The notes: a model not told the origin generated them from the sequence alone. A stretch of 64,000 bases of DNA from Parcubacteria group bacterium Greene0714_7 (GCA_007378985.1 VMHB01000001.1:128252-192251); one strand, 5' to 3'. Positions 8,168-29,756 are shown, counted from the stretch's first letter. Translations and numbers: made by a program.

Positions 8168-8238
8168 TGGGGAATCGTCTAATGGTAGGACAGAGGCCTT
8201 TGAAGCCTTTAATTGGGGTTCGAATCCCTGTTCCCCAG
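8168..8238 (+). tRNA. tRNA-Gln (anticodon UUG)
   Basis: Manual fold. Acceptor TGGGGAA/TTCCCCA starts with U1-A72 like bacterial tRNA-Gln. The D-arm is GTCT/GGAC. The anticodon stem GAGGC/GCCTT carries loop CUUUGAA. The T-arm is TGGGG-TTCGAAT-CCCTG. The discriminator is G and no CCA is encoded. A hairpin plus T-run follows at 8253-8282. Confidence 0.7.
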
Positions 8239-8408
8239 CTAGAGAAAGTTGAATCCCGATGTGAAAACATCGGGATTTTTATTTTCTCTCTGTGGACAGG
8301 GATTCGAAAGACGGAGGCGCGAAGCCACATGTTTCATGTGTTGCCGAGTCGGGGTCGAGCGCACTTAGTATTTTACGAATTTGAGGAGTAAAATACTTAG
8401 TGACGGGT

Positions 8409-8430
8409 GACCGAATCCCTGTTCCCCAGC
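8409..8430 (+). repeat. direct copy of the tRNA-Gln 3' end (T-arm plus acceptor), copy 2
   Basis: GACCGAATCCCTGTTCCCCAGC matches 8217-8238. Further copies are at 8684-8705 and, truncated, at 12611-12623. A tRNA 5'-half-like fragment sits at 8477-8501 and an inverted T-arm fragment at 8294-8308. Confidence 0.7.
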
Positions 8431-8683
8431 AGTGCACACGAATGAACACTTTTTCATTCCCCTCGCTCGCTAGACAGTAGGACAGAGGCCTTTGAAGCCT
8501 TGAATTAGAGTTTTTTGCGAGCGAAGCGATCCATTACAAAAAAGCTCGAATTCACTTCGCGGATGTTGCGTATAGCAACACAAGAAGCTAATTGGGGTAA
8601 AAATTAGAGTTGGGCGATTAGAAAATCGTGCCGAGAGGCTTCGCAAGAAATTTCAGTCAAGAAATTTACTTGTGACCGAATCC

Positions 8684-8721
8684 CTGTTCCCCAGCCAGCT
8701 TGAGATAGGTTCAATGTCCAG
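8684..8721 (+). repeat. left direct repeat (tRNA-Gln 3' end plus CAGCTTGAGATAGGTT) bounding a 3.9-kb element
   Basis: Its partner at 12611-12638 (TTTCCCCAGC CAGCTTGAGCTAGGTT) has the same junction sequence after the tRNA-derived part. Confidence 0.6.
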
Positions 8722-8825: not shown

Positions 8826-9059
8826 TTAACCGGGGTATTTCTCTGGATCCTTGCCATAGGTGTGTTCAGTTTGGATCGTTCCGTCACTCTTGTGGATTAT
8901 GACTTGTCCGAGGCCTGCAGATTGCGCGAGTCCTTTTGCAAGCTGCACAGCATCTGATTTGTCTTCAAGAATTTTCACAGCGCGGTCTGCGCCCCGTTCC
9001 TTCACCTTCCAATCGTCGCCGTTTGGTGTTACGTGATATATGCGTCTTGGCATATGCAT
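8826..9059 (-). CDS. DUF2188 domain protein
   Basis: YHVTPNGDDWKVKERGADRA ... IIHKSDGTIQTEHTYGKDP matches the DUF2188 pattern. It is the first gene inside the repeat-bounded element. Confidence 0.5.
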   Translation of the reverse strand: MHMPRRIYHVTPNGDDWKVKERGADRAVKILEDKSDAVQLAKGLAQSAGLGQVIIHKSDGTIQTEHTYGKDPEKYPG

Positions 9060-9191
9060 ATTTTAGATTTCGTTGATAATGGTGGTGTCGACCGTTGGGT
9101 AGGGGCCCCCACCCTTGACTGCCACATGGTACACATGATACAGTTCCCACCACGGGAGTCAACATGAAGGTACTGAAGATAACCCAGCATT

Positions 9192-9479
9192 ATGCAATTA
9201 GTTGGAAAAGAAATCTTAATTACCTTCAAAAATGAGCATCCCGATGCGCGTTCCCAGGTCGAAGCGTGGGAAGCCGAAGTGGAGAGTGCCGAATGGAAGA
9301 CTCCTCACGAGATCAAGAGGTCATATCAGAAGGTCAGTCTCCCCGGTAAACGGCAGGCCATATTCGATCTGTGCTGGAATAAATATCGGTTATGGGTGAA
9401 GGTCGCATACAACACCGGTATCGTAATTGTAAAAGCCATCGGAACCCATAAAGAATACGAAAAGTGGAACATTGAATAG
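9192..9479 (+). CDS. higB: type II toxin-antitoxin system HigB-family toxin (RelE/ParE superfamily)
   Basis: 95 aa. WNKYRLWVKVAYNTGIVIVKAIGTHKEYEKW matches the HigB_toxin signature. Confidence 0.65.
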   Translation: MQLVGKEILITFKNEHPDARSQVEAWEAEVESAEWKTPHEIKRSYQKVSLPGKRQAIFDLCWNKYRLWVKVAYNTGIVIVKAIGTHKEYEKWNIE

Positions 9480-9482
9480 TGT

Positions 9483-10700
9483 ATGAATGACATCAAAATC
9501 ATAAAAACGAAAGAAGATTGTAATCGAGCCCTACTACTCATTGAAGGGCTTGTTGATCGTGATCCAGAGGTTGGATCCGTGGATGCAGACCGCCTTACGC
9601 TTCTCACTGCGCTAGTTAAAGACTACGAATCAAAGAATTTTCCTGAACATCTTCCTGATCCTATTGAAGCAATCAGATTCCGCATGGAGCAAGCTGACCT
9701 TAAGCCTGCAGACCTCGTGCCTTACATAGGCACTGCTGCACGAGTGTCAGAAATTCTTTCAGGGAAACGGCAACTCACGTTGGATATGGTTAGAGCACTT
9801 TCTACAGGTCTTGGTATTCCGGCAAAAGTTCTCATACAAAAACCTTCACGTAATTTTGAATCCCAAAACTGGGACACAGCGCTTGTACGCACAATGGAGC
9901 GACGTGGTTATTTTGGCAAAAAGACTCTCAAGGAGCATGACAAATCAGAATTGGTTAGCGGATTTTTTGCGATGTTTGGTCATTTACAACCCACCGTTCT
10001 TTATCGAAAGACTAGTTTCCGTTCTGCTCCCCGCACTGATAATAGTGCCTTACTTGCTTGGGGAGTTCGCGTGCTTCAAAAAGCCGCAAAAATGAAAGTT
10101 GTCACTAAGTATAAAAAAGGAACAGTCAATTTATCTTTCATGAGTGCATTAATGCAATTGAGTGCAAAAGATAAAGGCCCACTTCTCGCTCGAGATCATC
10201 TCAAGAAACATGGCATCAAACTAATCATTGAGCCACATCTTCCTAAGACTCATCTAGATGGAGCAACTTTCTTTGCCGAAAAAGAGAATCCAGTTATCGG
10301 ACTGACTATTCGTCACGATCGTCCTGATAATTTCTGGTTTACCCTGATGCACGAACTTGGACACGTCGCATTACACCAAGATAACGACATCGAATCCTTC
10401 TACGACGAGGCACTTCAAGACAAGGATGGTGTAGAAATCGACTCCAAAGAAAAGGAAGCAGATACCCTCGCCGAAGAGTCTATCCTTCCAAAGAGTAAGT
10501 GGGAAACAAGCGCAGCAAAGACAACCCCGAATCAGTTTTCTACCGAAGACTTAGCGAATGAACTGGGTGTACAAATCGCCATCATTGCTGGCATGATCCG
10601 TTTTAAACATAAAAACTTCTATTACCTGAACAAAATAGTAAACGATAAAAGTCTGAGTGTCAGACAGTACTTTATGGAAGAGTTTGAAGAAAAAATATGA
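9483..10700 (+). CDS. HigA-like XRE-family HTH protein fused to an ImmA/IrrE (M78) zinc metallopeptidase domain
   Basis: The central HTH is AARVSEILSGKRQLTLDMVRALSTGLGIPAKVL. The C-terminal HEXXH is LMHELGHVALH. The start is 4 nt after the higB stop. The stop overlaps the next gene's start (ATGA). Confidence 0.65.
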   Translation: MNDIKIIKTKEDCNRALLLIEGLVDRDPEVGSVDADRLTLLTALVKDYESKNFPEHLPDPIEAIRFRMEQADLKPADLVPYIGTAARVSEILSGKRQLTLDMVRALSTGLGIPAKVLIQKPSRNFESQNWDTALVRTMERRGYFGKKTLKEHDKSELVSGFFAMFGHLQPTVLYRKTSFRSAPRTDNSALLAWGVRVLQKAAKMKVVTKYKKGTVNLSFMSALMQLSAKDKGPLLARDHLKKHGIKLIIEPHLPKTHLDGATFFAEKENPVIGLTIRHDRPDNFWFTLMHELGHVALHQDNDIESFYDEALQDKDGVEIDSKEKEADTLAEESILPKSKWETSAAKTTPNQFSTEDLANELGVQIAIIAGMIRFKHKNFYYLNKIVNDKSLSVRQYFMEEFEEKI

Positions 10701-11842
10701 CTAAAGTAGTCAAACCATACGTCCCTATATTGCGCTGGAGACCTGCTGAAATGGCGGCATTAGAAAGATTATTTCCAGATGATAGAGAAAATGTGACGCC
10801 ATTGATTGAGTTCATAATGCCTGGACCTTCGATTGATAAAGAAACCCGCAAAGTGACAAAAACACCTAGAGACAAGTTTCTAGAAATACTACCTAATGTC
10901 ACGAAAGACTTACTGAAATCTTGCGGGAAAACTCCAACGTTTATTGATGTCCATCTCCTCGATGGAGATATCCGAGCTTCTTCGCTTGAACAAATTCTCT
11001 CTTCATCGAGCGAACTGGATTTATTCTCTGTTCCAGTTACTTACATTATTCCAGTGACTAGTACGAGCGCAGACATGGAAACCCGCACGGTGGCAGTCAA
11101 TTATGCAAAGTCCAGTGGACATGGACTCTGTATTCGTATCGACAAATCTCACCTCAAGGAAGCAAAGTTCTCATCGCATATTACCGATTTTGTTAAGGCG
11201 AATAAATTGGATGTTGAGAACACTGACTTACTTGTCGATCTGCGCGTCATTGAAAAGGAAACTGATATAACAGAAATAGTAAGACAGCTTACACAACTTC
11301 CAGACCTGAAAAAGTGGCGTTCATTTATCGTGTCTGGTGGTGTTTTCCCGAAAGATTTAAGTGCATTCACAGCCGGTGAGGTACATCCTCTTGAACGACT
11401 GGATTGGAAGTTATGGAAAGCCGTTCGAGAAGCCGGATTGATTCGTATGCCGTTTTTTTCTGACTATACGATCCAGCATCCTTTTTACGAATATGTCGCC
11501 GCCATTGGGAGTGCCAGCATACGATACACAGCTGATGATAAGTGGTGGATTTTTAGAGGTAAGATTCCAGGTCTTATTAATAGGAAAACAAAAGAAAAAG
11601 GTCCAGGACGAGAACAATACATAGGACACGCTCAAACACTTATCAAACGAGATTTTTACAAGAAGAAAGAATATAGCTTTGGTGATGGGGAGATCGCCAG
11701 AATTGCTGCTCCCGGTAATGAAAAGCCGGGGAGTCCAACCACATGGCTCACCATTGGCATCAATCACCACCTCACGCTGGTTGCACGTCAGGCCTCCAAT
11801 CTTGCCGAGAAGATTGCAGAACCTTCCACACGTGTTTCTTAA
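10697..11842 (+). CDS. sce7725-like / beta-protein family protein (partner of sce7726-type proteins)
   Basis: The N-terminal YVPILRWRPAEMAALERL ... TPLIEF pattern matches what I recall of the beta-protein family. The start is translationally coupled to the upstream M78 gene. The 3' end overlaps the convergent gene by 71 nt. Confidence 0.4.
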   Translation: MTKVVKPYVPILRWRPAEMAALERLFPDDRENVTPLIEFIMPGPSIDKETRKVTKTPRDKFLEILPNVTKDLLKSCGKTPTFIDVHLLDGDIRASSLEQILSSSSELDLFSVPVTYIIPVTSTSADMETRTVAVNYAKSSGHGLCIRIDKSHLKEAKFSSHITDFVKANKLDVENTDLLVDLRVIEKETDITEIVRQLTQLPDLKKWRSFIVSGGVFPKDLSAFTAGEVHPLERLDWKLWKAVREAGLIRMPFFSDYTIQHPFYEYVAAIGSASIRYTADDKWWIFRGKIPGLINRKTKEKGPGREQYIGHAQTLIKRDFYKKKEYSFGDGEIARIAAPGNEKPGSPTTWLTIGINHHLTLVARQASNLAEKIAEPSTRVS

Positions 11843-12386
11843 GTGGTTTGAGTTCCATTGATTCAGCAAGTCGTTCGTAGACTAATTCGCGCGGTTTTGA
11901 GCGGACCCCATCCGCTTTACCGAGATTCTCTAGTTTATCGAGTGCTTCACCTCTCCATAGCATTCGAGCGATCGAGACATGATCCTGTTCCGGGTTATTT
12001 TTCGGTTTTCTGATCTTGTTAAAAAAGACTTGACCGTCCTCTCCTATATGTGCGGTATCAATGCCCCACCATTCAGGAATCATCTTAAATGCATCAACGA
12101 AATGTTTAGTGCCCACAATAAGTGTCACTTGATCAAAGATCGCATTATAAGCGTGTATTTGCTCGGGGAGTCTACTGAGTGTGTCGCGATCGCTTTTGAT
12201 TTCAAAGCCGCGCAAGACACCGTTTACAACGGCAACGTCAATTCTTACGGCTCCATGCCAGATTCCCAGCTCTGGAAGCACCCGATAATTCGGATAGTCT
12301 TTTGAGAGTCGATTTACGAGCGCCTCTCTTATTATGGTGTCGTTTGTTTGATTTTTTGTCCCAAGGGCAACACGACACAAATTCAT
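11772..12386 (-). CDS. sce7726-like small PD-(D/E)xK-fold protein
   Basis: RIDVAVVNGVLRGFEIKSDRDTLSRLPEQ carries the D ... E-x-K motif and length typical of the sce7726 family. It is convergent with and overlaps the sce7725-like gene. Confidence 0.45.
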   Translation of the reverse strand: MNLCRVALGTKNQTNDTIIREALVNRLSKDYPNYRVLPELGIWHGAVRIDVAVVNGVLRGFEIKSDRDTLSRLPEQIHAYNAIFDQVTLIVGTKHFVDAFKMIPEWWGIDTAHIGEDGQVFFNKIRKPKNNPEQDHVSIARMLWRGEALDKLENLGKADGVRSKPRELVYERLAESMELKPLKKHVWKVLQSSRQDWRPDVQPA

Positions 12387-12610: not shown

Positions 12611-12638
12611 TGTTTCCCCAGCCAGCTTGAGCTAGGTT
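12611..12638 (+). repeat. right direct repeat (att-like) of the 3.9-kb element
   Basis: See 8684-8721. One mismatch lies in the 16-bp junction segment. Confidence 0.6.
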
Positions 12639-13374: not shown

Positions 13375-13728
13375 ATGCGTATGTCGGACCTTCAAAGGCT
13401 TACCGAGGAGATTATTGCGTTTCGTAATGCTCGCGATTGGAAGCAATTTCATAACTCTAAAGACTGCGCTATTTCTCTTTCTCTAGAAGCAGCAGAGCTG
13501 TTGGAGCATTTTCAGTGGAAGAACAAGGAAGAGGTAAAAAAATATATTGAAACCAATAAATCTGATATCGGTGAAGAATTGGCCGATGTTTTGTATTGGG
13601 TTTTACTTATGAGTCATGATTTGGACATTGATATTTTAAGTGCGCTTGGAAAGAAAATTAAAAAGAATGAAGAAAAATATCCAATAGAAAAAGCGAAAGG
13701 AGTACATACGAAATATACAAAATTATGA
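13375..13728 (+). CDS. MazG-like nucleoside triphosphate pyrophosphohydrolase (small all-alpha NTP-PPase)
   Basis: RDWKQFHNSKDCAISLSLEAAELLEHFQWK and EELADVLYWVLLMSHDLDID are MazG/dCTPase-like EExxE/D motifs. The stop overlaps the downstream start (ATGA). Confidence 0.6.
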   Translation: MRMSDLQRLTEEIIAFRNARDWKQFHNSKDCAISLSLEAAELLEHFQWKNKEEVKKYIETNKSDIGEELADVLYWVLLMSHDLDIDILSALGKKIKKNEEKYPIEKAKGVHTKYTKL

Positions 13729-16001
13729 TTGTATACGAAGCCACAGCTAAAAAATTCATTGAGGATGTGGATTCTAATCAGATTCTTTCTGAGATTGAGA
13801 AGGCCTTCCGTGAAAAGCTCGGTAGAGGCATACCTCCTGGAGAGGTCAGTGCATATGTAAACTCACTACCTCATATGGAGAGGGTGGTCCGGCGGGCCGG
13901 AGTTGCGGACGATTGTGGAATTCTAATTGAGTACAAAATACCCCTGACCAACTTTCGCATAGATTTTGTGATTTCAGGGACAGACGAAGAAGGGAATAAG
14001 AATTTTGTAATTGTCGAATTGAAGCAATGGCAGAAAGCAAGAATTGCGGAGGGGGATGGGCTCGTTGAGTCATTTACGGGAGGTGCTCAGAGAGTAGTTA
14101 CTCATCCGAGCTACCAGTCCTCCAGGTATAAGGACTTCATGGGTGACTTTAACGAAGCGATATATAGCGGCTCTGTTAAGGCGTATTCGTGTGCTTACCT
14201 TCACAACTACCCCACAAGCGAGCCCGAACCGTTGCTCGATCATAAGTACCACAACGTTATTGCTAATTCACCCATATATTTCCGAGATGACCAAGCAAAG
14301 CTTCAGGACTTTATTGCAAAGTATGTAAAGTATGGGAAAGGTATGGACGTGCTATACGAAATTAGCAACGGAACCATACGACCCTCTAAGCGACTCATAG
14401 ATCATGTCGCCAGTATGTTCAAGGGCAATCAAAACTATATTCTAATGGACGAACAGAAGGTTGCCTTTGAGACTGCTCGATCCGTAGCCAATAAAGGTGA
14501 AAAAGCGATAGTAATAATTAAGGGAGGGCCAGGGACGGGCAAATCTGTAATCTCTGTTAATTTGGTGAGCGCTTTACTGACAGACAAACTAAATGCGTTA
14601 TTTGTTGCCCCGAATTCATCATTTCGCGACGTGCTGGTCAAAAAATTAACTCTTGAGAATTCTGCTCAAAGAATCAAGAACATCTTTAAGGGGTCTGCTT
14701 CTTTTTATAATGCAGAGGAGAACGAGTTTGATGTCCTAATTGTTGACGAAGCCCATAGGCTGAAGAAAAAAGGAGCTTTTATGTATGAGGGTGTGAATCA
14801 GGTCGCTGACGTTATTAAAGCTGCCCGAACGTCGATTTTCTTTATAGATGATGATCAGGCAGTTAGACCTGATGATATTGGAACCGTGCACGAATTGAAA
14901 CGACTAGCTGAGCAACACGACGCAAAAATATATGAAATGGAGCTAACAGCGCAATTTAGATGTGCCGGAGCGGAGGGCTATATAAATTGGCTGAATGACA
15001 CATTGCACTTAAAGGAAACTGCCAATTACGATGGCTGGGACAATAAGAGCTTCGATTTTAAAATTTTCGATGACCCAAACAAGTTGCGCGAAGCCATTAG
15101 CGAGAAATCAAAAAAGGGTAACGTTGCCAGAATCCTTGCGGGATATGCATGGGAGTGGACTGCTGCAAATAAGGGTAATGCGGACGGCGAAGTCGAGGAT
15201 ATCGTAATTTCAGAATTCGACTTCAGGATGCCGTGGAATTCACGCAAGGTTGGAACAACTTGGGCGATCGATGAAAAAGGAATTGAACAGGCTGGCTGTA
15301 TTCACACTTCCCAAGGATTAGAGTTTGATTACGTTGGTGTAATAATTGGAGACGATTTAAATTTTGATACGGAGAGTAAACTTTTCTCTACAGACCACAA
15401 GAAATATAAGGATAAGACTGGAAAGAAAGGCATGAAAGAGAAGCCTGAAGAATTGAATAGACTAGTCAGGAATATATATAAAGTTTTGATGACTCGTGGG
15501 ATGAAGGGCTGCTATGTCTATTTTTCGGATAAGGGGCTAGAGCATTATTTTAAAGAGAGAGTACGACTTACTGAGAGTAATTCAAGGCCTGGTGTACCTG
15601 TAGTGTCACCAATTACTCGAGAAATGCTTCAAATACCTCTAGTCGGATCGGCACCTTGTGGAGCTCCGTTACTCGGCCAGGAGAATATTGAAGAATATAT
15701 ATCTGTCGAGAAATCAAAGATCAGATCAGGGTTTGAGTACTTTGTTCTCAGAGCTGAAGGCGACTCCATGAATCTTGCTGGCATAAACGACGGTGACCTT
15801 GTGTTGTGTCGTCAACAATTAAAAGCGGATACCGGTGATAGGGTCGTGGCTTTACTTGGGGACAATGTGACGATAAAGGAATACGGTCCCCGCAAGGACG
15901 GAGTGCGCCTTCTTTTGCCAAAAAGTTCAAATAAAGATCACACACCAATTACCCCAAGCGAAGGAGATAGTGTGCAAGGAATTGTGCAAGAGGTCTTATG
16001 A
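13725..16001 (+). CDS. three-domain protein: N-terminal PD-(D/E)xK nuclease-like, DUF2075/SF1-helicase-like ATPase, and C-terminal LexA/UmuD-type S24 autopeptidase
   Basis: The PD-(D/E)xK region is RIDFVISG ... FVIVELKQW (about 13956-14035). Walker A is GGPGTGKSV (about 14521) and Walker B is VLIVDEAH. The UvrD_C-like region is CIHTSQGLEFDYVGVI. The S24 tail has the Cys-Gly site APCG (15657-15662), the Ser motif GDSM (Ser at 15765) and the Lys motif VTIKEY. Confidence 0.7.
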   Translation: MIVYEATAKKFIEDVDSNQILSEIEKAFREKLGRGIPPGEVSAYVNSLPHMERVVRRAGVADDCGILIEYKIPLTNFRIDFVISGTDEEGNKNFVIVELKQWQKARIAEGDGLVESFTGGAQRVVTHPSYQSSRYKDFMGDFNEAIYSGSVKAYSCAYLHNYPTSEPEPLLDHKYHNVIANSPIYFRDDQAKLQDFIAKYVKYGKGMDVLYEISNGTIRPSKRLIDHVASMFKGNQNYILMDEQKVAFETARSVANKGEKAIVIIKGGPGTGKSVISVNLVSALLTDKLNALFVAPNSSFRDVLVKKLTLENSAQRIKNIFKGSASFYNAEENEFDVLIVDEAHRLKKKGAFMYEGVNQVADVIKAARTSIFFIDDDQAVRPDDIGTVHELKRLAEQHDAKIYEMELTAQFRCAGAEGYINWLNDTLHLKETANYDGWDNKSFDFKIFDDPNKLREAISEKSKKGNVARILAGYAWEWTAANKGNADGEVEDIVISEFDFRMPWNSRKVGTTWAIDEKGIEQAGCIHTSQGLEFDYVGVIIGDDLNFDTESKLFSTDHKKYKDKTGKKGMKEKPEELNRLVRNIYKVLMTRGMKGCYVYFSDKGLEHYFKERVRLTESNSRPGVPVVSPITREMLQIPLVGSAPCGAPLLGQENIEEYISVEKSKIRSGFEYFVLRAEGDSMNLAGINDGDLVLCRQQLKADTGDRVVALLGDNVTIKEYGPRKDGVRLLLPKSSNKDHTPITPSEGDSVQGIVQEVL

Positions 16002-16387
16002 AAATAATACAAGACGACGTATTAAGTTATAGAGAAATGTGTAATTCTGAAAACCAGGAAGTTATGCAACGTGGTATGAATTTTCGTATGAACCCTTCGT
16101 ACTCAGTTATTTTGATGTCACAGAGAGCAAATGCACCATATTCAGACAAGGTTCATGGTGATGGGGTTACAATCGAGTACGAAGGACATGATATTTCAAA
16201 AGCTTATAGTAAAAATCCAAAAGTAGAAGATCAGCCAGAAAAACTTTCAAGCGGTAAGCTAACACAGAATGGTTTCTTTATTAAGGCTGTGAATGATTTC
16301 AAAATGAAAGGGGGAATACCAGAACTAGTAAAAGTATATGAAAAGTGTTTCCTGGAGTCTGGTCTTTTAAAGGGTACTTTGATTTAG
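15998..16387 (+). CDS. hypothetical protein, possibly the N-terminal part of the downstream HNH nuclease (frameshift)
   Basis: 129-aa ORF ending 43 nt inside the next ORF, which is in the -1 frame. The start overlaps the upstream stop (ATGA). Confidence 0.35.
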   Translation: MKIIQDDVLSYREMCNSENQEVMQRGMNFRMNPSYSVILMSQRANAPYSDKVHGDGVTIEYEGHDISKAYSKNPKVEDQPEKLSSGKLTQNGFFIKAVNDFKMKGGIPELVKVYEKCFLESGLLKGTLI

Positions 16388-16778: not shown

Positions 16779-16838
16779 ATGCCCCTCATCTCCAAAACAA
16801 CCTTCCTTGAATTCCTGATGTGCCCCAAGAATGAGTGA
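16779..16838 (+). pseudogene. duplicated 5' fragment of the DUF2779 gene (homologous to the start of 28251-29756)
   Basis: ATGCCCCTCATCTCCAAAACAACCTTCCTTGAATTCCTGATGTGCCCCAAGAA encodes MPLISKTTFLEFLMCPKNE-stop. This matches MSTLISKTTFLEFLMCPKN at 28251 closely at nucleotide level. Confidence 0.6.
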
Positions 16839-16900: not shown

Positions 16901-17881
16901 ATGAAAAAGAAACCAGTAAAAAATAACGTAGTTATCTATCAAGCAAAAAACGGCGCTATTGAGCTTCGTGGGGATTTTGAGCATGAGAGTATTTGGGCAA
17001 CACAGGCTGAAATAGCTCGACTATTTGATGTGACTCCTCAAAATATTACTTTACACCTTGGAGGTATTTTTAAGGAAAAAGAGCTTGATCAAAAGGCAAC
17101 TTGTAAGGATTTCTTACAAGTTCAAACAGAGGGAGATAGGCAGGTAAAGAGAAACGTTAAGCTCTATAATCTTGATGTCATTATTGCTGTTGGTTACCGA
17201 ATTAATTCGGTAATAGGTACGAATTTTCGCATATGGGCAACCAAGACGCTCCGTGAGCACATAACCAAAGGCTACACAATAAACCGTAAGCAAATCGGCA
17301 AGAATTACGATTCTTTTATGAAAACGGTTTCGGACATTCAGGCACTGTTGCCCGAACACGTAACGCTCGACCCTAAAGCGATACTCGAACTTGTAAAAGA
17401 GTTCTCAAGTACGTGGGTGTCACTTGATGCCTATGACAAAGGAACGCTCAAGGCTGTTGGATCAACTAAAAAATCAATTACACTCACCGGTATTGAATTG
17501 ACTGAAGCGATTTTGAGTTTCCGTTCCGAGTTGTTGAACAAAGGTGAGGCAACAGAGATATTTGCACAAGAAAGATCTGAGGGAAGTGTTGAAGGAATAG
17601 TAGGGAACGTCATGCAATCATTCGGTGGCAAACCCCTCTATGTGTCTCTCGAAGAGAAAGCGGCACACCTCTTGTACTTTATGGTGAAGAATCATCCGTT
17701 TGTTGATGGCAACAAACGCTCAGGTGCATTTGCGTTCATTTGGTTTTTACGTAAAGCAAAAGTTAAAACAATGCGGAATATAAACCAGGGAGCGTTGACT
17801 GCGCTTACTCTTTTGATTGCAGAAAGCGATCCCGATAAGAAAGACCACATGGTTGCGTTGGTTACAGAGATTCTGAAGTAG
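16901..17881 (+). CDS. RhuM-family N-terminal domain fused to Fic/Doc (death-on-curing-type) domain protein
   Basis: The RhuM-like N-terminus is VVIYQ ... IELRGDFEHESIWATQAEIARLF ... NLDVIIAVGYRINS ... FRIWATKTL. The C-terminal Fic motif is HPFVDGNKRSGA. Confidence 0.65.
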   Translation: MKKKPVKNNVVIYQAKNGAIELRGDFEHESIWATQAEIARLFDVTPQNITLHLGGIFKEKELDQKATCKDFLQVQTEGDRQVKRNVKLYNLDVIIAVGYRINSVIGTNFRIWATKTLREHITKGYTINRKQIGKNYDSFMKTVSDIQALLPEHVTLDPKAILELVKEFSSTWVSLDAYDKGTLKAVGSTKKSITLTGIELTEAILSFRSELLNKGEATEIFAQERSEGSVEGIVGNVMQSFGGKPLYVSLEEKAAHLLYFMVKNHPFVDGNKRSGAFAFIWFLRKAKVKTMRNINQGALTALTLLIAESDPDKKDHMVALVTEILK

Positions 17882-18867: not shown

Positions 18868-20367
18868 ATGAAACTTTTCAAATTCCTTTCTCTTATAGGA
18901 GCGGTTTTATTCCTTGTGCCATGCGTGGTAATTGCAGTTGATATGACTGCCCCTGTGGCACCCGAAATGCCGGCGGGTCCTTCAATTTCCAGCGTCTCCG
19001 TTACAGACATTACCAATACGAGCGCACGAATTGATATTAATTCTGATGAGGTAGTGCAAGGATACGTCGAGTACGGCACGAGCAGAGAGTACGGCATGTC
19101 GACACCACTTACGAGCGAGTTTAGTACGTCACCTTCTTTTTTGCTGGAAAATCTTTCTCCTGAGACGCTCTATCATTACCGAGTCATTGTCATGGATTCA
19201 AGTGGCACGGCGACAATAACGGGCGACGAGACCTTTACCACGCTCGCGACTCCCGAACCGGAACCTGAACCGGAACAATCACCAACACAAACTGCGACTA
19301 CAACGACACCGACAAGCGACACAAATACGGCCACATCAACCTCAACTACCACCGCTACCACGACCCCGCCTGCCCCGGCGCTCGCAGTCTCGAATACGGA
19401 GACCGCATCGGTGAGCACTTCGACCGTACGCATTACCTGGCAGACCAATAAGAATGCCGATGGTCAGGTGCAATATGGCACGACCAGTGCATATGGATCA
19501 CTGTCACTGCTTGGCACGATCTCCACCTCGCACTCGATATCGCTGTCGAGTCTTACGCCAAATACGAAGTATTATTATCGTGCCATTTCCAAAACTTCTT
19601 CTGGCGAGACAGCGTATAGCCAACCCCAAACATTCACGACTCTTGTCTATGTGCCACCCACTCCTTCAACCGCCACTTCCACTTCTACATCGGGTGCGCC
19701 TGTACAAACCGCTACCACAAGTCCAGTAACTGTAGCTTCTTCAACTCCGCCCGTTTCAAATAGTTCTACTGTCATTGGATCAGTAACCAAACCCGGAGGG
19801 CTACCGGTCGCGCCCACGCGACCGCTACTGGTGCGTGTTGAAGTAGGTGACAGAAAGGTTGCTTTTGCATGGAAAAAAGATGTAGGAGTAAAAAACGCCA
19901 CTATACATACGCTCATTGTGAAAAAGGAAGGGACTTCGTATGTCACTTCACGCGTTGATGGGGCAGTCATCTACGATGGCCCATCGACATCTTTTACTGA
20001 TACGAATGTTGAGAATGGAAAGGAATACCACTACGCTCTCTATTCATATGGTATGTATGGCAGGTTCACTGCCCCGTTTCGTTTCAAAGTGATACCTCGT
20101 GCCGAAGAAAAAGCCAATTTCACTCCTGAAGTTGAAACATTGCCTACTCCCGCGCTTACCCGTGATCTCTTCCAAGGAAAGCAGGGCGAAGACGTCAAAG
20201 CTCTGCAAACATACCTCGCGTATGAAGGGTACTATCCTGAAGCACTCATAACGGGTTATTTTGGTATTCTCACGAAGAATGCGGTTACTCGATATCAGAA
20301 ATTGAATGACATCATACCAATGGCAGGATATGTTGGTCCAATTACTAGGGAAGCTCTCGGTAGATAA
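18868..20367 (+). CDS. secreted cell-surface protein with fibronectin type III-like domains, Thr/Pro-rich linkers and a C-terminal peptidoglycan-binding domain
   Basis: Signal peptide and FN3-like repeats (GTSREYGMSTPL, YYYRAISKTSSGET). The C-terminal PG_binding_1-like segment is GEDVKALQTYLAYEGYYPEALITGYFGILTKNAVTRYQ. Confidence 0.6.
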   Translation: MKLFKFLSLIGAVLFLVPCVVIAVDMTAPVAPEMPAGPSISSVSVTDITNTSARIDINSDEVVQGYVEYGTSREYGMSTPLTSEFSTSPSFLLENLSPETLYHYRVIVMDSSGTATITGDETFTTLATPEPEPEPEQSPTQTATTTTPTSDTNTATSTSTTTATTTPPAPALAVSNTETASVSTSTVRITWQTNKNADGQVQYGTTSAYGSLSLLGTISTSHSISLSSLTPNTKYYYRAISKTSSGETAYSQPQTFTTLVYVPPTPSTATSTSTSGAPVQTATTSPVTVASSTPPVSNSSTVIGSVTKPGGLPVAPTRPLLVRVEVGDRKVAFAWKKDVGVKNATIHTLIVKKEGTSYVTSRVDGAVIYDGPSTSFTDTNVENGKEYHYALYSYGMYGRFTAPFRFKVIPRAEEKANFTPEVETLPTPALTRDLFQGKQGEDVKALQTYLAYEGYYPEALITGYFGILTKNAVTRYQKLNDIIPMAGYVGPITREALGR

Positions 20368-20453
20368 CGTTACTTTCTGAGTTTTTCTTTTACCTGAACA
20401 TTTCAGATACAAAAATGTACAGGTAGCGTAACGTATATTTTTATTGCTACAAT

Positions 20454-23400
20454 TTGTCGGTGCAGATGTTTCGGCAGACATTTGGTTTTTTACTTATTGT
20501 GCTCATTTTTTTAAGCGCACCTTTTTCAGCGTTTGCAGCAACTATCTACGCTAATAGTTCTACTGGGAATGATTCAACTGGTGACGGAACCTCAGGGTTA
20601 CCGTATGCAACTTTTCATAAAGCCTACACATCAGCGAGTGCAAATGACACAATCGATCTTACGGGCACCTTTACGTGGACAGATGCAGCAGAAACCGGAG
20701 ACAGCGCAACGACGGGCTACACCATCGGAAAGAATCTCACTATCCAAGGTCAGGGAAGTAGTGCGACATACATCCAAGCAGCGAGTGCTTCAACGACTGC
20801 CGACCGGCGTGTGTTCACTATCTCTTCTGGAGTCGTTGTAACGATGGCCGAAGTGAACATTCGACATGGACGTATTACCTCGACAAGTTACTATGGTGGC
20901 GGCATCGCCAACAGCGGTACACTCTCCATCACCGACAGCGAAATAAACAACAATACCGCAGGTGGCGGAGGTGGCGGTATAGATAACGTAGGTACGACGA
21001 CTGCACAACGCATTTCCGTGTACAACAACACGACTACCTACATGGGTGGCGGTCTTCTCAACGACTACTACATCGGCACGGGTGGCTACTTTGTCGTTGA
21101 GAACTCGACTATCTATGGCAACCGACAGACTTCGACCAGCGGATACCTCAATGGCGGTGGCGTGCATGTGCGTGGCGGTAGTATGTCGCTTACCAACAAC
21201 ACCATCACAGGCAACATCGCCAAAGGTGGAGGTGGTCTCGGAATGGAAACAACTGGCTCGGTGTATTTGATGAACAACATCATTGCGGGCAACACATCTC
21301 AGACATACGGCTCAACATATAATGACCTAAAGAAAGACTCAGGCACTATCGTTGATAATGGGTACAACATTATTGGTCAGCCAGGTGGCTACTCGCTCGC
21401 TGCAACTGGCGATTGGAGCGATACGAATGTTGATGGTACCTACAGTCTCTATACTGTCGGCACGACAGGCTCGCTCAATCTCGACACTGGAGCGAGCATC
21501 AATGACAATGCAACTTCAACGCCTACTTGGGCGGTTCTTGCAAGCTCAATTGCTATCAACAACGGCTCGACCGGAAGCAATGGGGCGACATCGACGGTGC
21601 CAACTCTGGACCAGCGTGGCGCTAGCCGTAGCGGTACGACCGATATCGGTTCGTTCGAATATAACGGTTCCGGGCTCACTATTTCTGCTCCCTCGACGCA
21701 AGCGAGCGCAGTGTCGTTCAGTGCAGTCGAATACTACAAGATGACGATCTCGTGGACCAACGGCAGTGGTTCGCGTCGCACTGTTTTCATGAAAGCCGCT
21801 TCGAGTGGCACGGCCTCTCCGGTCGACGGCACAAGCTATACTGCCTCGTCGGTTTTCGGCTCCGGTACGCAGATAGGTTCTTCCGGATGGTATGCAGTTT
21901 ATGAGGGACTCAACTCAAGTGTTACTGTGACCGGATTGTCGGAAGGCGTCACCTACAGCGTGCAGGTGTTTGAGTACAATGGGATTACATCGGGGGCGGC
22001 AACATATCAGACGGCGAGCGCATCGAATAATCCAAATACGCAGGCGTCGCATACGAAGACCACGCTCTACATCAATGCCTCCACGGGAAATGATTCGACG
22101 GGCGATGGCTCGTCCGGTTCGCCGTACGCTACCTTTCATAAAGGATATACGACGGCATCCGAAGGCGATACGCTGAATTTGACCGGCACGTTCACCTGGA
22201 CAGATGCAGCAGAAACCGGAGACAGCGCAACGACGGGTTATTCGATCGCAAAAGAACTCATTATTCAAGGGCAAAGCGCTACCTCTACTATTTTCCAGTC
22301 CGCAACCGCTTCGACGACTGCCGACCGGCGTGTGTTTACGACCAGTTCCGGAAAGACCATTGCGTTCAACGACGTAACTATTCGGCACGGCCGTATCACG
22401 AGTTCGTCCTCGAAAGGTGGAGGTATCTACAGCCAGGGAACGACGACGGTGACCCGTGCGACTATTACGGACAACTACGTGAACGGTTATGGGGGCGGTA
22501 TCGCTCAGGAAGATACGACGAATGGCGGTTCACTCACACTTACCTCGAGCACGGTGGCAAACAACACGGGAGTTTCGCAAGGTGGCGGCGTCTGGAACGG
22601 AACGAGCTCGACAGGCACCGTGGACATCGTGAACTCAACCATTGCATTCAATGTTCAGCAGGCTTCGATTGCGACCGTGGGTGGTGGTGGCGTCGCATAC
22701 CGAAGTGGCAGTGGCACCATTACGAACAGCACCATTGTCTACAACAACATTCAAAACGGTGGAACCGCAAACGGTGCGGGGGTTTGGTTTAGCCCCGACA
22801 CATCCCATACGATAGAGCTCAAAAACAATATCATTGCAAATAACTACAAATCCGGTGCAGCACTTTCGGGTTCATATTACGATATCTATAAAGGAAGTAG
22901 TGGCACCTATACAGACAACGGTGCGAACATCATTGGTAAGTATACGAGCTCGAACCTGACCGTCGCATCGAGCACGTTGATAGATTTGCAGGGGACGACC
23001 GGTACGGGTGATGGCACTTTCACACGTTCAAGCGATGGTGGAAGCGGTTCTTTGTATCTCGACACCGCACTTGCCGATAACGGTGTCCTAAAGACACAGA
23101 CGATTGCTCTCACAAACGCATCAAGTATCGCAATCGGCAACGGTTATAGCGGGACGAATGGTTCCATCTCCGTCCCTTCGGTTGATCAGCGTGGCGGTGC
23201 TCGTGTTGGGACACTCGACATTGGTGCATATGAATACGGCGCGACGGTTGATACGACCGCACCGACCGTTTCGCTTACCGCTCCCTCGGCGAGTGCGACC
23301 GTCTCTGGTGAATCCGTTTCTCTTACGGCGACCGCTTCCGATGGCATAGGTGTCGCAGGTGTTTCGTTCTACGTGGACGGCGTACTTCAGGGAGCGGAAG

Positions 23401-28250: not shown

Positions 28251-29756
28251 ATGTCTACACTCATCTCCAAAACAACGTTTCTTGAATTTTTGATGTGCCC
28301 AAAGAACATCTGGCTCAAGCTCCATAGGCCTGAGCTTATGAAGCTGTTTTTGCTCTCAGCGTTTGAACTTCAGTTGGCTGAACAGGGAAACGAAGTTGAA
28401 GCGTATGCTCGGAATCTTTTTCCTGGGGGCGTGCTTGTCACGGAAACGGGGGATGAAGCGGTCAGAGAGACGGAGAGGTTTATGCTTTCAGAAGTACCTG
28501 CAATATTTCAAGCAACATTTGTAGTTGATGGGTTTATTGCAAAAAATGATGTGCTCGCGTACGACAAAAAGAATGCGTGCTTCGATTTGTATGAAATAAA
28601 AGGCACAAACTCAATTAAGGAGGAAGGGAAGACTCGTGATCATATAGACGACCTCACTTTTCAAGCATCTGTTTTGAGACGTGCGAACGTTCAGACAGGT
28701 AAGTATTTTATTATTCATCTCAACAAAGAGTATGTGCGGATGGGTGACCTTGTCCCAGAGGAGTTGTTTAGAGTAGAAGACATGACTGAGAAGGTTGTTG
28801 CACGCCTGCCTCAGGTGGAAGAGCAGATGGAATCGGCTCGGTATCACTTAACACAAGAAGAAGAGCCCATTAAAGGGTGTGATTGTATTTTTTCAGGACG
28901 AAGTGCGCACTGTTCAACATTCAAACATTCTAATCCACAGGTTCCTGAGTATTCTATTCACGACTTGGCACGCATTGGAAGTAGTAAGAAGAAGCTTGCA
29001 ACGCTGGTGGAGCGAGAAGTGTTTAGTTTAGATGATGTTCCTGCGGATGTAGATTTGAGTGATATTCAATTGAATCAGCTTCTCGTGTATAGAAATCAGA
29101 AACCTATTATTGACCTTGATGCTATTCGCGCGGAGATAGAGGCACTCATATTTCCTCTGTATTTCTTAGACTACGAAACTTTTGCGCCAGCCATACCTAT
29201 GTTTTCCGGCTACAGTCCGTACAAGCGAATTCCGTTTCAATTTTCACTTCATATTTTGGATACTCCTGCCGGTGAACTTCGGCATGTGGAGTATCTGCAC
29301 GAAGAGCGCTCTGACCCTTCCGAGAAAGTAGCTGAAATGTTGGCGGAACATATTCTTCCGATTGGTAGTGTAATTTCATGGAATAAAAGCTTTGAGCAGG
29401 GAGTGAATAGGGAACTAGCTCTTAGGCAACCTGATGAGCGTATTGCCTTGGAGCGTATAAATACACAGATGTACGATCTTCGAGATGTATTTCAAAAGCA
29501 GTATTATGTGCATCCAGATTTTCGTGGAAAAACTTCTATTAAGAAAGTACTCCCTGCGCTCGTGGAAGGAGTTCGTCACGCTGATCTAGATATTTCAGAA
29601 GGTGGTGCAGCATCAGATGCGTGGTGGCAAATGATTTCTCCCACCATCACAGCGCCAGAACGCACAAAGATTGCTACAGACTTGAGAACCTACTGCGAGC
29701 TTGATACCTACGCCATGTACCAGATTTGGAAGCACCTCAAGGATATGGTGGGTTAA
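28251..29756 (+). CDS. DUF2779 domain protein (RecB/Cas4-like nuclease fold)
   Basis: The N-terminal ISKTTFLEFLMCPKNIWL is the hallmark start of DUF2779 proteins, 501 aa. Confidence 0.55.
   Translation: MSTLISKTTFLEFLMCPKNIWLKLHRPELMKLFLLSAFELQLAEQGNEVEAYARNLFPGGVLVTETGDEAVRETERFMLSEVPAIFQATFVVDGFIAKNDVLAYDKKNACFDLYEIKGTNSIKEEGKTRDHIDDLTFQASVLRRANVQTGKYFIIHLNKEYVRMGDLVPEELFRVEDMTEKVVARLPQVEEQMESARYHLTQEEEPIKGCDCIFSGRSAHCSTFKHSNPQVPEYSIHDLARIGSSKKKLATLVEREVFSLDDVPADVDLSDIQLNQLLVYRNQKPIIDLDAIRAEIEALIFPLYFLDYETFAPAIPMFSGYSPYKRIPFQFSLHILDTPAGELRHVEYLHEERSDPSEKVAEMLAEHILPIGSVISWNKSFEQGVNRELALRQPDERIALERINTQMYDLRDVFQKQYYVHPDFRGKTSIKKVLPALVEGVRHADLDISEGGAASDAWWQMISPTITAPERTKIATDLRTYCELDTYAMYQIWKHLKDMVG

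What the first reader, a model, noticed from the sequence alone, without database searches (positions are those of the whole stretch)
9192..12386. HigB toxin + HTH-ImmA/IrrE metallopeptidase fusion, translationally coupled to a convergent, 3'-overlapping sce7725-like/sce7726-like gene pair
The 405-aa protein pairs a HigA-like XRE HTH with a COG2856/M78 HEXXH peptidase (LMHELGH). That architecture is used by ImmR/ImmA-type and DdrO/IrrE-type stress-sensing switches. Its stop overlaps (ATGA at 10697-10700) the start of a 381-aa protein with the beta-protein/sce7725-like N-terminal signature. The 204-aa convergent partner has a PD-(D/E)xK-like IDVAVV ... FEIKSD motif (sce7726-like), and the two ORFs overlap by 71 nt at their 3' ends (11772-11842). 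As far as I know the sce7725/sce7726 cassette is a conserved two-gene system of unknown function. Here it is embedded with a TA module and a protease-coupled regulator inside a repeat-bounded tRNA island, which fits a regulated defence or abortive-infection role.
Basis: partly seen in the sequence, partly recalled or inferred. Interest (0 to 1): 0.75.

Follow-up and report, generated by a model that had tools for sequence, protein, structure and literature searches.

The report
PD-lambda-2-type phage-defence cassette with extra nuclease
This is a copy, in a tiny-genome Parcubacteria bacterium, of an already described anti-phage system (PD-lambda-2), and here and in all its close relatives it carries a fourth, tail-to-tail overlapping nuclease-like gene that ties it to the gop-beta-cII system of satellite phage P4.

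Summary
There are four ORFs: a HigB-like gene (9192-9479), a HigA-HTH/M78-peptidase fusion (9483-10700), a Beta-family protein (10697-11842, ATGA stop/start overlap) and a convergent sce7726-family gene (11772-12386, 71-nt 3' overlap).

It is not an uncharacterised cassette. Genes 1-3 match the PADLOC models of PD-lambda-2 A, B and C over their full length (B: E=1.6e-133). PD-lambda-2 is an abortive-infection defence validated in E. coli. Genes 3-4 are homologues of P4 beta and cII, part of the validated gop-beta-cII system. The third protein is Pfam Beta_protein, not NCBIfam sce7725.

New here:
- In 46 of 46 related loci that have beta, the convergent nuclease-fold gene is also present. The overlap is 26-137 nt and always 2 mod 3.
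- The beta/sce7726 pair also occurs alone in prophages (75/80 sce7726-anchored loci have it).
- The HigB/HTH-M78 pair also occurs with other partners.

So PD-lambda-2 and gop-beta-cII look like two elaborations of one beta-cII core. The fourth protein has a PD-(D/E)xK fold with invariant D50/E62/K64. Beta is a TIM-barrel-like protein with no assignable activity.

The mechanism is inferred, not shown. Verdict: new member of a known kind, moderate interest.

The parts
8168..8239 (+). tRNA-Gln (UUG), the integration target at the head of the island
   Evidence: ARAGORN
8672..8711 (.). Left att-like repeat: a partial copy of the tRNA-Gln 3' end (8672-8695) plus 16 nt. A further partial copy lies at 8407-8430
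   Evidence: the repeat finder families D3 and D7
8826..9059 (-). DUF2188 gene (PADLOC candidate PDC-S16). It lies inside the repeat-bounded segment but is not conserved with the cassette elsewhere
   Evidence: Pfam E=1.9e-18; PADLOC PDC-S16 E=4.5e-19; no homologue in 79 related loci
9115..9144 (+). Promoter-like site (TTGACT-18-TACAGT with TG) upstream of gene A. Consensus match only
   Evidence: the number of such sites in the region does not exceed shuffles
9192..9479 (+). Gene A: HigB-fold (RelE-like) protein, 95 aa; PD-lambda-2_A
   Evidence: Pfam HigB_toxin E=1.6e-21; PADLOC PD-Lambda-2_A E=7.7e-34, full length; family profile matches E. coli HigB 5ifg_A/5ycl_B at E=2e-10, with the invariant G84 T85 H86 E88 Y89 (GTHxEY) block of the family on E. 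coli HigB's THKEY and invariant R66 on an E. coli Arg
9483..10700 (+). Gene B: HigA antitoxin domain with HTH (residues 1-118) fused to an ImmA/IrrE M78 zinc peptidase (residues about 241-368), 405 aa; PD-lambda-2_B
   Evidence: PADLOC PD-Lambda-2_B E=1.6e-133, residues 1-400 of 405; Peptidase_M78 E=3.4e-11; N-terminus matches whole E. coli HigA 5ifg_B at E=1.9e-13
10350..10364 (+). HEXXH zinc-binding/catalytic motif (H290 E291 L G H294) of the M78 domain
   Evidence: Invariant in 23 homologues (alignment A1)
10697..10700 (+). ATGA: stop codon of B overlapping the start codon of C
   Evidence: Sequence; B-C spacing is -4 to +4 nt in 36 of 49 related loci
10697..11842 (+). Gene C: Beta-family protein (homologue of P4 beta), 381 aa, predicted TIM-barrel-like fold; PD-lambda-2_C
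11772..11842 (.). 71-nt convergent 3' overlap of C and D. The conserved cores abut (C ends at Q365, nt 11791; D ends at R198, nt 11793). Each gene's variable tail is read antisense to the other's conserved end
   Evidence: tails have pLDDT <50
11772..12386 (-). Gene D: sce7726-family protein (homologue of P4 cII), 204 aa, PD-(D/E)xK nuclease fold
12195..12239 (-). Predicted nuclease active-site motif D50 ... E62-x-K64
   Evidence: Invariant in 40 close and 13 distant homologues, including P4 cII
12614..12638 (.). Right att-like repeat (TTCCCCAGCCAGCTTGAGCTAGGTT), 96% identical to 8687-8711
   Evidence: the repeat finder family D7

Best explanation
The locus is a PD-lambda-2-type anti-phage (abortive-infection) cassette carried in a small defence island at tRNA-Gln of a Parcubacteria genome. 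It is in its natural four-gene form. A is a HigB-fold protein. B is a HigA-HTH domain fused to an M78 zinc peptidase. C is a P4-beta-like TIM-barrel protein. D is a convergent, 3'-overlapping P4-cII-like PD-(D/E)xK nuclease.

Proposed working:
(1) Shown for the E. coli homologue, inferred here: B is harmful on its own and A neutralises it. A and B therefore form a mutually restraining pair, probably through the HigB:HigA interface retained in B's N-terminus. B's HTH probably autorepresses the tightly packed A-B-C operon.
(2) Inferred: infection disturbs the A:B balance or directly activates the M78 peptidase, as in ImmA/ImmR, IrrE/DdrO, CapP/CapH and RmrA switches.
(3) Shown in E. coli that C is needed for defence but not for neutralising B. 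Inferred that the output runs through the beta-cII pair, which is the evolutionarily constant core, and that the D nuclease is the likely executioner, held or directed by beta.
(4) Inferred: convergent transcription across the shared 3' ends gives antagonistic control of C and D expression.
For: Identity: full-length PADLOC matches to PD-Lambda-2 A, B and C (E=7.7e-34, 1.6e-133 and 1.8e-43) and to 'cll' for D. Pfam and NCBIfam agree.

Experimental basis in homologues: PD-lambda-2 gives abortive-infection defence against lambda-vir; B alone is toxic, A rescues, and C is required for defence (PMC9519451). gop-beta-cII protects against lambda and P1 (PMC9122126).

One unit: ATGA coupling of B and C. 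Of 64 related loci with enough downstream sequence, 46 are A-B-C plus convergent D, none has C without D, and all loci with B scoring 367 bits or more have both. Similarity scores of B, C and D co-vary across 49 loci (B-D Spearman 0.65).

Core pair: in sce7726-anchored viral contigs 75/80 have a convergent beta gene. 69/75 of the overlaps are in the same phase, 2 mod 3. The same arrangement is found in E. coli, B. cereus, Rhodococcus and Sinorhizobium plasmids. P4 has the same convergent order.

Active sites look intact: HEXXH is invariant in B. D50/E62/K64 are invariant in D, which has a PD-(D/E)xK fold. The GTHxEY block is invariant in A.

Context: neighbours are defence-type genes, namely DUF2188/PDC-S16, MazG-like, an Schlafen-type helicase fused to an S24 peptidase with AbiO/Nhi-like hits, and RhuM-Fic.
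Against: No experiment exists for this locus or for any four-gene version.

The E. coli clone that conferred defence spanned only about 396 nt beyond the stop of C. That is too short for a complete convergent D of about 600 nt. So D, if present in ECOR42 at all (not checked), was not needed for defence against lambda-vir.

A-B pairs also occur without C-D (18/64 loci, next to Mrr-like or NucS-like nucleases or alone). C-D pairs mostly occur without A-B (52/75 have no co-oriented upstream ORF). The two halves can therefore work independently.

The trigger, the protease substrate and the toxic step are all unknown.

No conserved hairpin or terminator was detected in the overlap, and the promoter and terminator matches do not exceed shuffles.
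Confidence: 0.7

Rival explanations
1. Two independent modules happen to sit side by side. One is a HigB / HTH-M78 toxin-antitoxin pair of the RosmerTA kind, which works alone. The other is a separate two-gene beta/sce7726 module. Their adjacency reflects defence-island clustering, not one machine.
For: Both halves occur separately. 18 of 64 A-B loci lack C-D. 52 of 75 prophage C-D pairs have no co-oriented upstream ORF. HTH-ImmA antitoxins pair promiscuously with many partners (PMC10440598).
Against: B and C share an ATGA stop/start overlap, and spacing is -4 to +4 nt in most relatives. Among close B homologues the association is 46/46. Divergence of B, C and D is correlated. In E. coli, C is required for PD-lambda-2 defence. 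Other M78 proteins recur upstream of beta/sce7726 in different forms: GNAT+M78 in E. coli L169, split HTH+M78 in Agrobacterium L168, and a stand-alone M78 in L093.
Confidence: 0.15
2. The cassette is mainly an addiction or stabilisation module. It keeps the tRNA-Gln island, or plasmids and prophages elsewhere, from being lost by post-segregational killing. Phage defence is at most a side effect.
For: It has HigBA ancestry. Homologues sit on plasmids, prophages and att-bounded islands. In P4, gop is reported toxic without beta, as quoted from Ghisotti 1990 in PMC9122126.
Against: Both characterised relatives were recovered or validated as anti-phage systems. The neighbours here are defence genes. 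An active-site-intact protease and nuclease are more than plasmid addiction requires.
Confidence: 0.1
3. B is an ImmR/ImmA-like or DdrO/IrrE-like stress switch. Its job would be to control mobility or induction of the element, or a DNA-damage regulon, with beta and sce7726 as cargo or repair genes.
For: B has an HTH plus M78 architecture. D's best structural match, 3dnx, is an uncharacterised PD-(D/E)xK protein, and NucS-type repair nucleases are among the hits.
Against: There is no integrase, excisionase or replication gene between the repeats at 8687 and 12638. The HTH domain is specifically HigA-type and is paired with a HigB. Homologues are validated defence systems.
Confidence: 0.04

Closest known systems
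PD-lambda-2 of E. coli ECOR42 (Vassallo et al. 2022, PMC9519451)
   Same: Same three co-oriented genes in the same order: a HigB-like protein, a HigA-HTH/M78 fusion and a Beta-family protein. All three match the PADLOC models over full length.
   Different: PD-lambda-2 is defined and was tested as a three-gene system; the tested clone ended about 396 nt after gene C. Here, and in 46/46 relatives that have C, a convergent sce7726/cII nuclease-fold gene overlaps the end of C. The host is a Parcubacteria (CPR) bacterium rather than E. coli. Whether ECOR42 has gene D could not be checked.
gop-beta-cII of satellite phage P4 (Ghisotti et al. 1990; Rousset et al. 2022, PMC9122126)
   Same: Homologous beta and cII genes in the same convergent arrangement. 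P4 cII scores 151 bits on sce7726_fam. My beta and cII profiles built from relatives of this locus find the P4 proteins at E=7e-20 and 2e-30.
   Different: P4 has gop upstream of beta instead of HigB plus HTH-M78; there is no gop homologue in the window. P4 beta and cII do not overlap: they are separated by a 27-nt spacer that is overlapped by the annotated terminator (1720-1749). P4 cII has a 60-aa C-terminal extension and lacks the RxxWR end motif.
Stand-alone beta/sce7726 pairs in prophages and plasmids (RefSeq 'beta family protein' plus 'sce7726 family protein')
   Same: Same convergent pair with a 3' overlap in the same phase. Overlaps are 41 nt in E. coli, 32 in B. cereus and 35 in Rhodococcus. 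75/80 viral contigs have the pair.
   Different: These have no A-B module upstream, and their function is untested.
NCBIfam sce7725/sce7726 two-gene cassette
   Same: Gene D is a clear sce7726_fam member.
   Different: Gene C is not a sce7725_fam member (no hit at E<=1). An E. coli beta protein shares only a 35-residue N-terminal stretch with that model, at 12 bits.
RosmerTA (RmrT/RmrA) and other HTH-ImmA antitoxin systems (PMC10440598)
   Same: An HTH fused to an ImmA/IrrE-type peptidase is paired with a small toxin-like partner, and the context is defence.
   Different: Only the peptidase core of B matches RmrA models, and weakly (E=4e-8, residues 239-347). Toxicity is reported reversed in PD-lambda-2 (B toxic, A protective). 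There are two extra genes, C and D.
ImmR/ImmA, DdrO/IrrE and CapH/CapP protease-repressor switches
   Same: An M78 HEXXH peptidase is coupled to an XRE-type HTH. B hits the PADLOC capP model at E=4e-10.
   Different: HTH and peptidase are one polypeptide here, and the HTH domain is a complete HigA with a cognate HigB. No cleavage has been shown.
E. coli K-12 HigB-HigA type II toxin-antitoxin pair (PDB 5ifg, 5ycl)
   Same: A aligns with HigB over its full length, and B residues 7-118 align with nearly all of HigA.
   Different: B carries a 285-residue peptidase extension. In the PD-lambda-2 homologue the HigB-like protein acts as the neutraliser.

Membership tests
PD-lambda-2 defence system (PADLOC/DefenseFinder definition) | PD-Lambda-2_A protein (HigB-like) | tested here: met
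   PDLC03981 E=7.7e-34, residues 1-93 on profile 1-93/94
PD-lambda-2 defence system (PADLOC/DefenseFinder definition) | PD-Lambda-2_B protein (HigA-HTH fused to an M78 peptidase) | tested here: met
   PDLC03982 E=1.6e-133, residues 1-400 on profile 1-399/402
PD-lambda-2 defence system (PADLOC/DefenseFinder definition) | PD-Lambda-2_C protein (Beta family) | tested here: met
   PDLC03983 E=1.8e-43 and PDLC03984 E=2.1e-40, near full length
PD-lambda-2 defence system (PADLOC/DefenseFinder definition) | Three genes adjacent, co-oriented, in the order A-B-C | tested here: met
   9192-9479, 9483-10700 and 10697-11842, all on the + strand
PD-lambda-2 defence system (PADLOC/DefenseFinder definition) | Abortive-infection protection against phage; B toxic and neutralised by A | not testable with these tools
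   Known only for the E. coli ECOR42 system (PMC9519451)
gop-beta-cII system of P4 (Rst_gop_beta_cll) | beta protein | tested here: met
   Pfam Beta_protein E=1.1e-63; PADLOC 'beta' E=6.8e-10
gop-beta-cII system of P4 (Rst_gop_beta_cll) | cII protein, convergent to beta | tested here: met
   PADLOC 'cll' E=3.8e-23; same orientation as in P4
gop-beta-cII system of P4 (Rst_gop_beta_cll) | gop protein upstream of beta | tested here: not met
   phmmer of P4 gop against all window ORFs: no hit at E<=10. The upstream genes are HigB-like and HTH-M78 instead
NCBIfam sce7725/sce7726 cassette | sce7726_fam member (NF033832) | tested here: met
   155.2 bits against a cut-off of 70
NCBIfam sce7725/sce7726 cassette | sce7725_fam member (NF033831) as partner | tested here: not met
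   No hit for the 381-aa protein at E<=1
HigB-HigA type II toxin-antitoxin | HigB-fold toxin and HigA antitoxin encoded in tandem | tested here: met
   Pfam HigB_toxin; profiles match E. coli HigB at E=2e-10 and HigA at E=1.9e-13
HigB-HigA type II toxin-antitoxin | HigB is the toxin (ribosome-dependent mRNase) and HigA the antitoxin | not testable with these tools
   In PD-lambda-2 the opposite toxicity was reported. The GTHxEY block (G84 T85 H86 E88 Y89) is conserved in A
ImmA/IrrE (M78) protease-repressor switches | M78 domain with an intact HEXXH | tested here: met
   Peptidase_M78 E=3.4e-11; H290, E291 and H294 invariant
ImmA/IrrE (M78) protease-repressor switches | Signal-dependent cleavage of a cognate HTH repressor | not testable with these tools
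   HTH and peptidase are fused here; no cleavage data exist
RosmerTA | Full-length RmrA-type antitoxin | tested here: not met
   The RmrA models match only residues about 239-352 of B, at E=4e-8 or weaker. NCBIfam spr1629 gives 27.9 bits against a cut-off of 335
PD-(D/E)xK nuclease superfamily (gene D) | Restriction-endonuclease-like fold | tested here: met
PD-(D/E)xK nuclease superfamily (gene D) | D ... (D/E)-x-K catalytic motif | tested here: met
   D50, E62 and K64 invariant, including in P4 cII
tRNA/DNA-guanine transglycosylase-like TIM barrels (considered for gene C) | Specific structural similarity beyond the generic barrel | tested here: inconclusive

The most novel reading that the evidence does not exclude
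The convergently overlapping beta (TIM-barrel) / cII (PD-(D/E)xK nuclease) pair would be an ancient, self-sufficient two-gene immune core. The catalogued PD-lambda-2 and gop-beta-cII systems would then be two regulatory elaborations of that same core. The sce7726 nuclease would be an unrecognised working component, the likely effector, of PD-lambda-2-type systems. Its expression would be set against that of beta by obligatory antisense transcription across the shared 3' ends.
Probability: 0.45. Interest if true: 0.55.

Novelty: new member of a known kind. Interest (0 to 1): 0.4.

Why it matters
PD-lambda-2 and gop-beta-cII are both validated defences with no known mechanism, and the catalogues list them as unrelated systems. 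This locus and its relatives show that they share one constant two-gene core: beta plus a nuclease-fold cII/sce7726 protein. The upstream modules are interchangeable (HigB+HTH-M78, gop, GNAT+M78, or none).

This points experiments at a concrete candidate effector, the D50/E62/K64 nuclease, and a concrete regulator, the M78 peptidase. It also suggests that detection rules for PD-lambda-2 should include the fourth gene. Finally, it documents the system in CPR bacteria and across many phyla at 50-82% identity, which implies frequent horizontal transfer.

Tried and rejected
(1) sce7725 membership of gene C: rejected (NCBIfam).

(3) Sequence search of solved structures for C and D: nothing below E=0.88.

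(4) A conserved hairpin or bidirectional terminator in the C/D overlap: mean folding z = -0.42 against 0.0 for control coding windows in 50 loci. The terminator-like and promoter-like matches in the window do not exceed shuffles. Not supported.

(5) DUF2188 as a fifth component: no homologue in 79 related loci.

(6) Dual coding constraint in the overlap: rejected. The conserved cores abut at nt 11791/11793, and only the variable, low-confidence tails are read antisense to the partner.

(7) Locating the E. coli ECOR42 prototype, to see whether it has gene D. The accession is not in the collections. Distant blastn from related loci found only other variants: GNAT+M78+beta+sce7726, and HigB+HTH+134-aa in a lambdoid prophage.

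(8) The 1990 P4 paper (Ghisotti et al.) is not held. My recollection is that read-through from cII impairs beta expression; this rests on memory only.

(9) Literature search for a PD-lambda-2 mechanism: only catalogue-type mentions.
Full report
OBSERVATION

The six-frame ORF list reproduces the four genes at the stated coordinates:
- A: 9192-9479 (+), 95 aa
- B: 9483-10700 (+), 405 aa
- C: 10697-11842 (+), 381 aa
- D: 11772-12386 (-), 204 aa

The stop of B and the start of C share ATGA at 10697-10700. A and B are 3 nt apart. C and D converge and share 71 nt, 11772-11842. The quoted motifs are in the translations: LMHELGH in B, and IDVAVV and FEIKSD in D.

tRNA-Gln lies at 8168-8239. It is followed by partial copies of its 3' end at 8407-8430 and 8672-8695. 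A 25-nt direct repeat (8687-8711 / 12614-12638) brackets a segment that holds a DUF2188 gene plus A-D and no integrase. The best homologue of B is 100% identical and comes from a 291,945-nt contig of 'Parcubacteria group bacterium Greene0714_7'.

FAMILY PLACEMENT

- A is Pfam HigB_toxin (E=1.6e-21). A profile of its relatives aligns end to end with E. coli HigB (5ifg_A, E=2e-10). The family's invariant G84 T85 H86 E88 Y89 (GTHxEY) block lies on E. coli HigB's THKEY, and invariant R66 aligns with an E. coli Arg.
- B has an M78 peptidase domain (E=3.4e-11) with invariant H290/E291/H294. Its first 118 residues match the whole E. coli HigA antitoxin (5ifg_B, E=1.9e-13).
- C matches Pfam Beta_protein over the entire profile (E=1.1e-63). 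It does not match NCBIfam sce7725_fam (no hit at E<=1).
- D is an NCBIfam sce7726_fam member (155 bits, cut-off 70).

The decisive result is the PADLOC scan. A, B and C match PD-Lambda-2_A, _B and _C over their full lengths (E=7.7e-34, 1.6e-133, 1.8e-43). C and D also match the 'beta' and 'cll' models of the P4 gop-beta-cII system (E=6.8e-10, 3.8e-23).

WHAT IS KNOWN ABOUT THESE SYSTEMS

PD-lambda-2 was recovered from E. coli ECOR42 in a functional selection. It is described as a HigB-like protein, a HigA-like HTH fused to a peptidase, and a protein 'related to a P4 phage antitoxin'. It acts by abortive infection. [quoted passage not shown]

In P4 (NC_001609) the genes are gop (+), beta (+) and cII (-). 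RefSeq already labels them 'beta family protein' and 'sce7726 family protein'. The three-gene locus protects against lambda and P1 (PMC9122126). I found no mechanistic paper on either system.

So the cassette is not of unknown function.

COMPARATIVE ANATOMY

Scan anchored on B (79 species genomes):
- 64 loci had at least 1.9 kb downstream of B.
- 46 of these are A-B-C plus a convergent, overlapping D. None has C without D.
- The 18 without C-D are the more distant B homologues.
- Every locus whose B scores 367 bits or more has both C and D.
- They come from CPR groups, Acidobacteria, Planctomycetes, Chloroflexi, Bacteroidetes, Nitrospirae, Gammaproteobacteria and others. Identities to the window's B reach 82%, which implies horizontal transfer.
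- Similarity scores of B, C and D co-vary (Spearman 0.53-0.65 for B-C and B-D).
- B-C spacing is -4 to +4 nt in 36 of 49 loci.
- The C/D overlap ranges from 26 to 137 nt, with a mode of 50, and is always 2 mod 3.

The same phase is seen in annotated beta/sce7726 pairs on E. coli, B. cereus, Rhodococcus and Sinorhizobium plasmids, with overlaps of 41, 32, 35 and 47 nt.

Scan anchored on D in viral contigs:
- 75 of 80 loci have the convergent beta gene, and 69 of the 75 overlaps are in that phase.
- 52 of 75 have no co-oriented ORF upstream of beta.
- A few have a stand-alone or HTH-fused M78 peptidase upstream.
- None has a detectable gop or HigB.

Other combinations:
- A-B pairs occur alone or next to Mrr-like or NucS-like nucleases.
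- E. coli chromosomes carry GNAT + M78 + beta + sce7726.
- An Agrobacterium plasmid has a split HTH + M78 upstream of the pair.

The picture is a constant beta-cII core with exchangeable upstream modules. M78 peptidases are the most recurrent of these.

THE OVERLAP

The overlap is ancestral and real, but it is not doubly constrained. The conserved part of C ends at Q365 (nt 11791) and the conserved part of D ends at R198 (nt 11793). Each protein's variable tail has low model confidence: C 375-381 and D 196-204 have pLDDT <50, within the variable stretches C 366-381 and D 199-204. Each tail is read antisense to the other's conserved end.

P4 is the exception. It has a 27-nt spacer overlapped by the annotated cII terminator, and its cII has a longer C-terminus that lacks the RxxWR motif.

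I found no conserved hairpin in the overlap. Transcripts from the two sides probably run into each other. This is inference.

STRUCTURES

The sce7726 family has about 2,900 representatives at E<=1e-10 among 1.84 billion 50%-identity cluster representatives.

MOST LIKELY MECHANISM

Steps marked 'shown' are shown only for homologues.

1. A and B restrain each other through the retained HigB:HigA interface. The HTH probably autorepresses the operon. Shown: B is toxic and A rescues. The rest is inferred.
2. Infection shifts this balance or activates the M78 peptidase, as in ImmA/ImmR, IrrE/DdrO, CapP/CapH and RmrA switches. Inferred. The HTH-ImmA logic is reviewed in PMC10440598.
3. The output needs beta (shown). 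I propose it runs through the D nuclease as executioner, giving abortive infection. The role of D is inferred from strict co-occurrence and an intact active site.
4. Convergent transcription adds antagonistic control of C and D. This is inferred. The P4 precedent is recalled from memory, because the 1990 paper is not held.

The main caveat concerns the E. coli clone. It ended about 396 nt past gene C, too short for a whole D. So D, if present in ECOR42, was dispensable for lambda-vir defence. I could not retrieve that contig.

RIVALS

- Two independent neighbouring modules. This is plausible because both halves occur alone, but it is disfavoured by the coupling, the 46/46 association and the requirement for C.
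- An addiction module.
- A mobility or stress switch. There are no mobility genes between the repeats.

NOVELTY AND VERDICT

The locus is a new member of a known kind, PD-lambda-2, in a Parcubacteria genome.

The worthwhile by-product is comparative. PD-lambda-2-type loci carry a fourth, nuclease-fold gene. PD-lambda-2 and gop-beta-cII share one beta-cII core that also circulates alone. This gives both uncharacterised systems a testable effector and regulator.

Interest is moderate (0.4).

Noticed in passing
window 8168-8711 and 12614-12638: tRNA-Gln is followed by at least three partial copies of its own 3' part (8407-8430, 8477-8512, 8672-8695) and by a matching 25-nt repeat 3.9 kb downstream. 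These look like scars of repeated integrations at one tRNA site. No integrase lies between the repeats.
   Followed up: partly
window 13375-16001: A MazG-like pyrophosphatase gene (13375-13728) has a 4-nt overlap with a 758-aa protein (13725-16001). That protein combines a Schlafen-group-3-type helicase domain with a C-terminal LexA-like S24 peptidase, and has weak AbiO/Nhi hits in PADLOC. It is a possible separate two-gene defence system with a self-cleaving switch.
   Followed up: partly
window 8826-9059 (-): A DUF2188 protein matches the PADLOC candidate family PDC-S16 (E=4.5e-19). It sits inside the repeat-bounded segment but is absent from 79 related loci.
   Followed up: yes
window 16901-17881: A RhuM-family/Fic-domain protein lies at the far end of the same island. 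A 129-aa ORF (15998-16387) with no family hit overlaps the stop of the helicase-S24 gene.
   Followed up: no
window 16785-16831 and 28260-28306: A 47-nt direct repeat (89% identical). The second copy lies at the 5' end of a DUF2779 gene (28251-29756). The first may be a fragment of a second copy of that gene.
   Followed up: no
window 18868-24698: Two adjacent large genes (499 and 1414 aa) encode proteins with fn3/purple-acid-phosphatase-N, Big_7 and peptidoglycan-binding domains. They contain internal 208-nt and 59-nt repeats spaced 1521 nt apart. The region is GC-richer (0.51-0.55) than the window average (about 0.43).
   Followed up: no
L086 (Acinetobacter pittii pNDM-AP_882, NZ_CP014478.1 66.7-80.1 kb): A hypothetical gene + ImmA/IrrE gene + beta + sce7726 cassette appears to be split inside the beta gene by the IS30-flanked blaNDM-1/ble segment. 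The same layout recurs in A. nosocomialis and A. baumannii plasmids in the hit list.
   Followed up: partly
L169 (E. coli 2014C-3075 chromosome, NZ_CP027447.1 about 4.158-4.161 Mb): A further variant of the cassette: GNAT acetyltransferase + HTH-less M78 peptidase + beta + convergent sce7726. The annotated overlap is 18 nt, a different phase from all the others. It lies next to a phosphorothioation-dependent restriction gene and a relaxase.
   Followed up: partly
L054 7321-8334 and L057 1907-2917 (Marinobacter MAGs); L053 7496-8593: Homologous HigB + HTH-M78 pairs are followed by an Mrr_cat-type nuclease gene (E about 1e-23), or in L053 a weakly NucS-like one, instead of beta/sce7726. The A-B module therefore seems to be a portable front end for different nucleases.
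   Followed up: partly
L170 (E. coli YZ_2_2 lambdoid prophage, between the repressor and N genes): HigB + a 218-aa HTH protein + a 134-aa protein occupy the rexAB-like position of a lambdoid prophage. This is a shorter relative of the A-B module without a peptidase.
   Followed up: no
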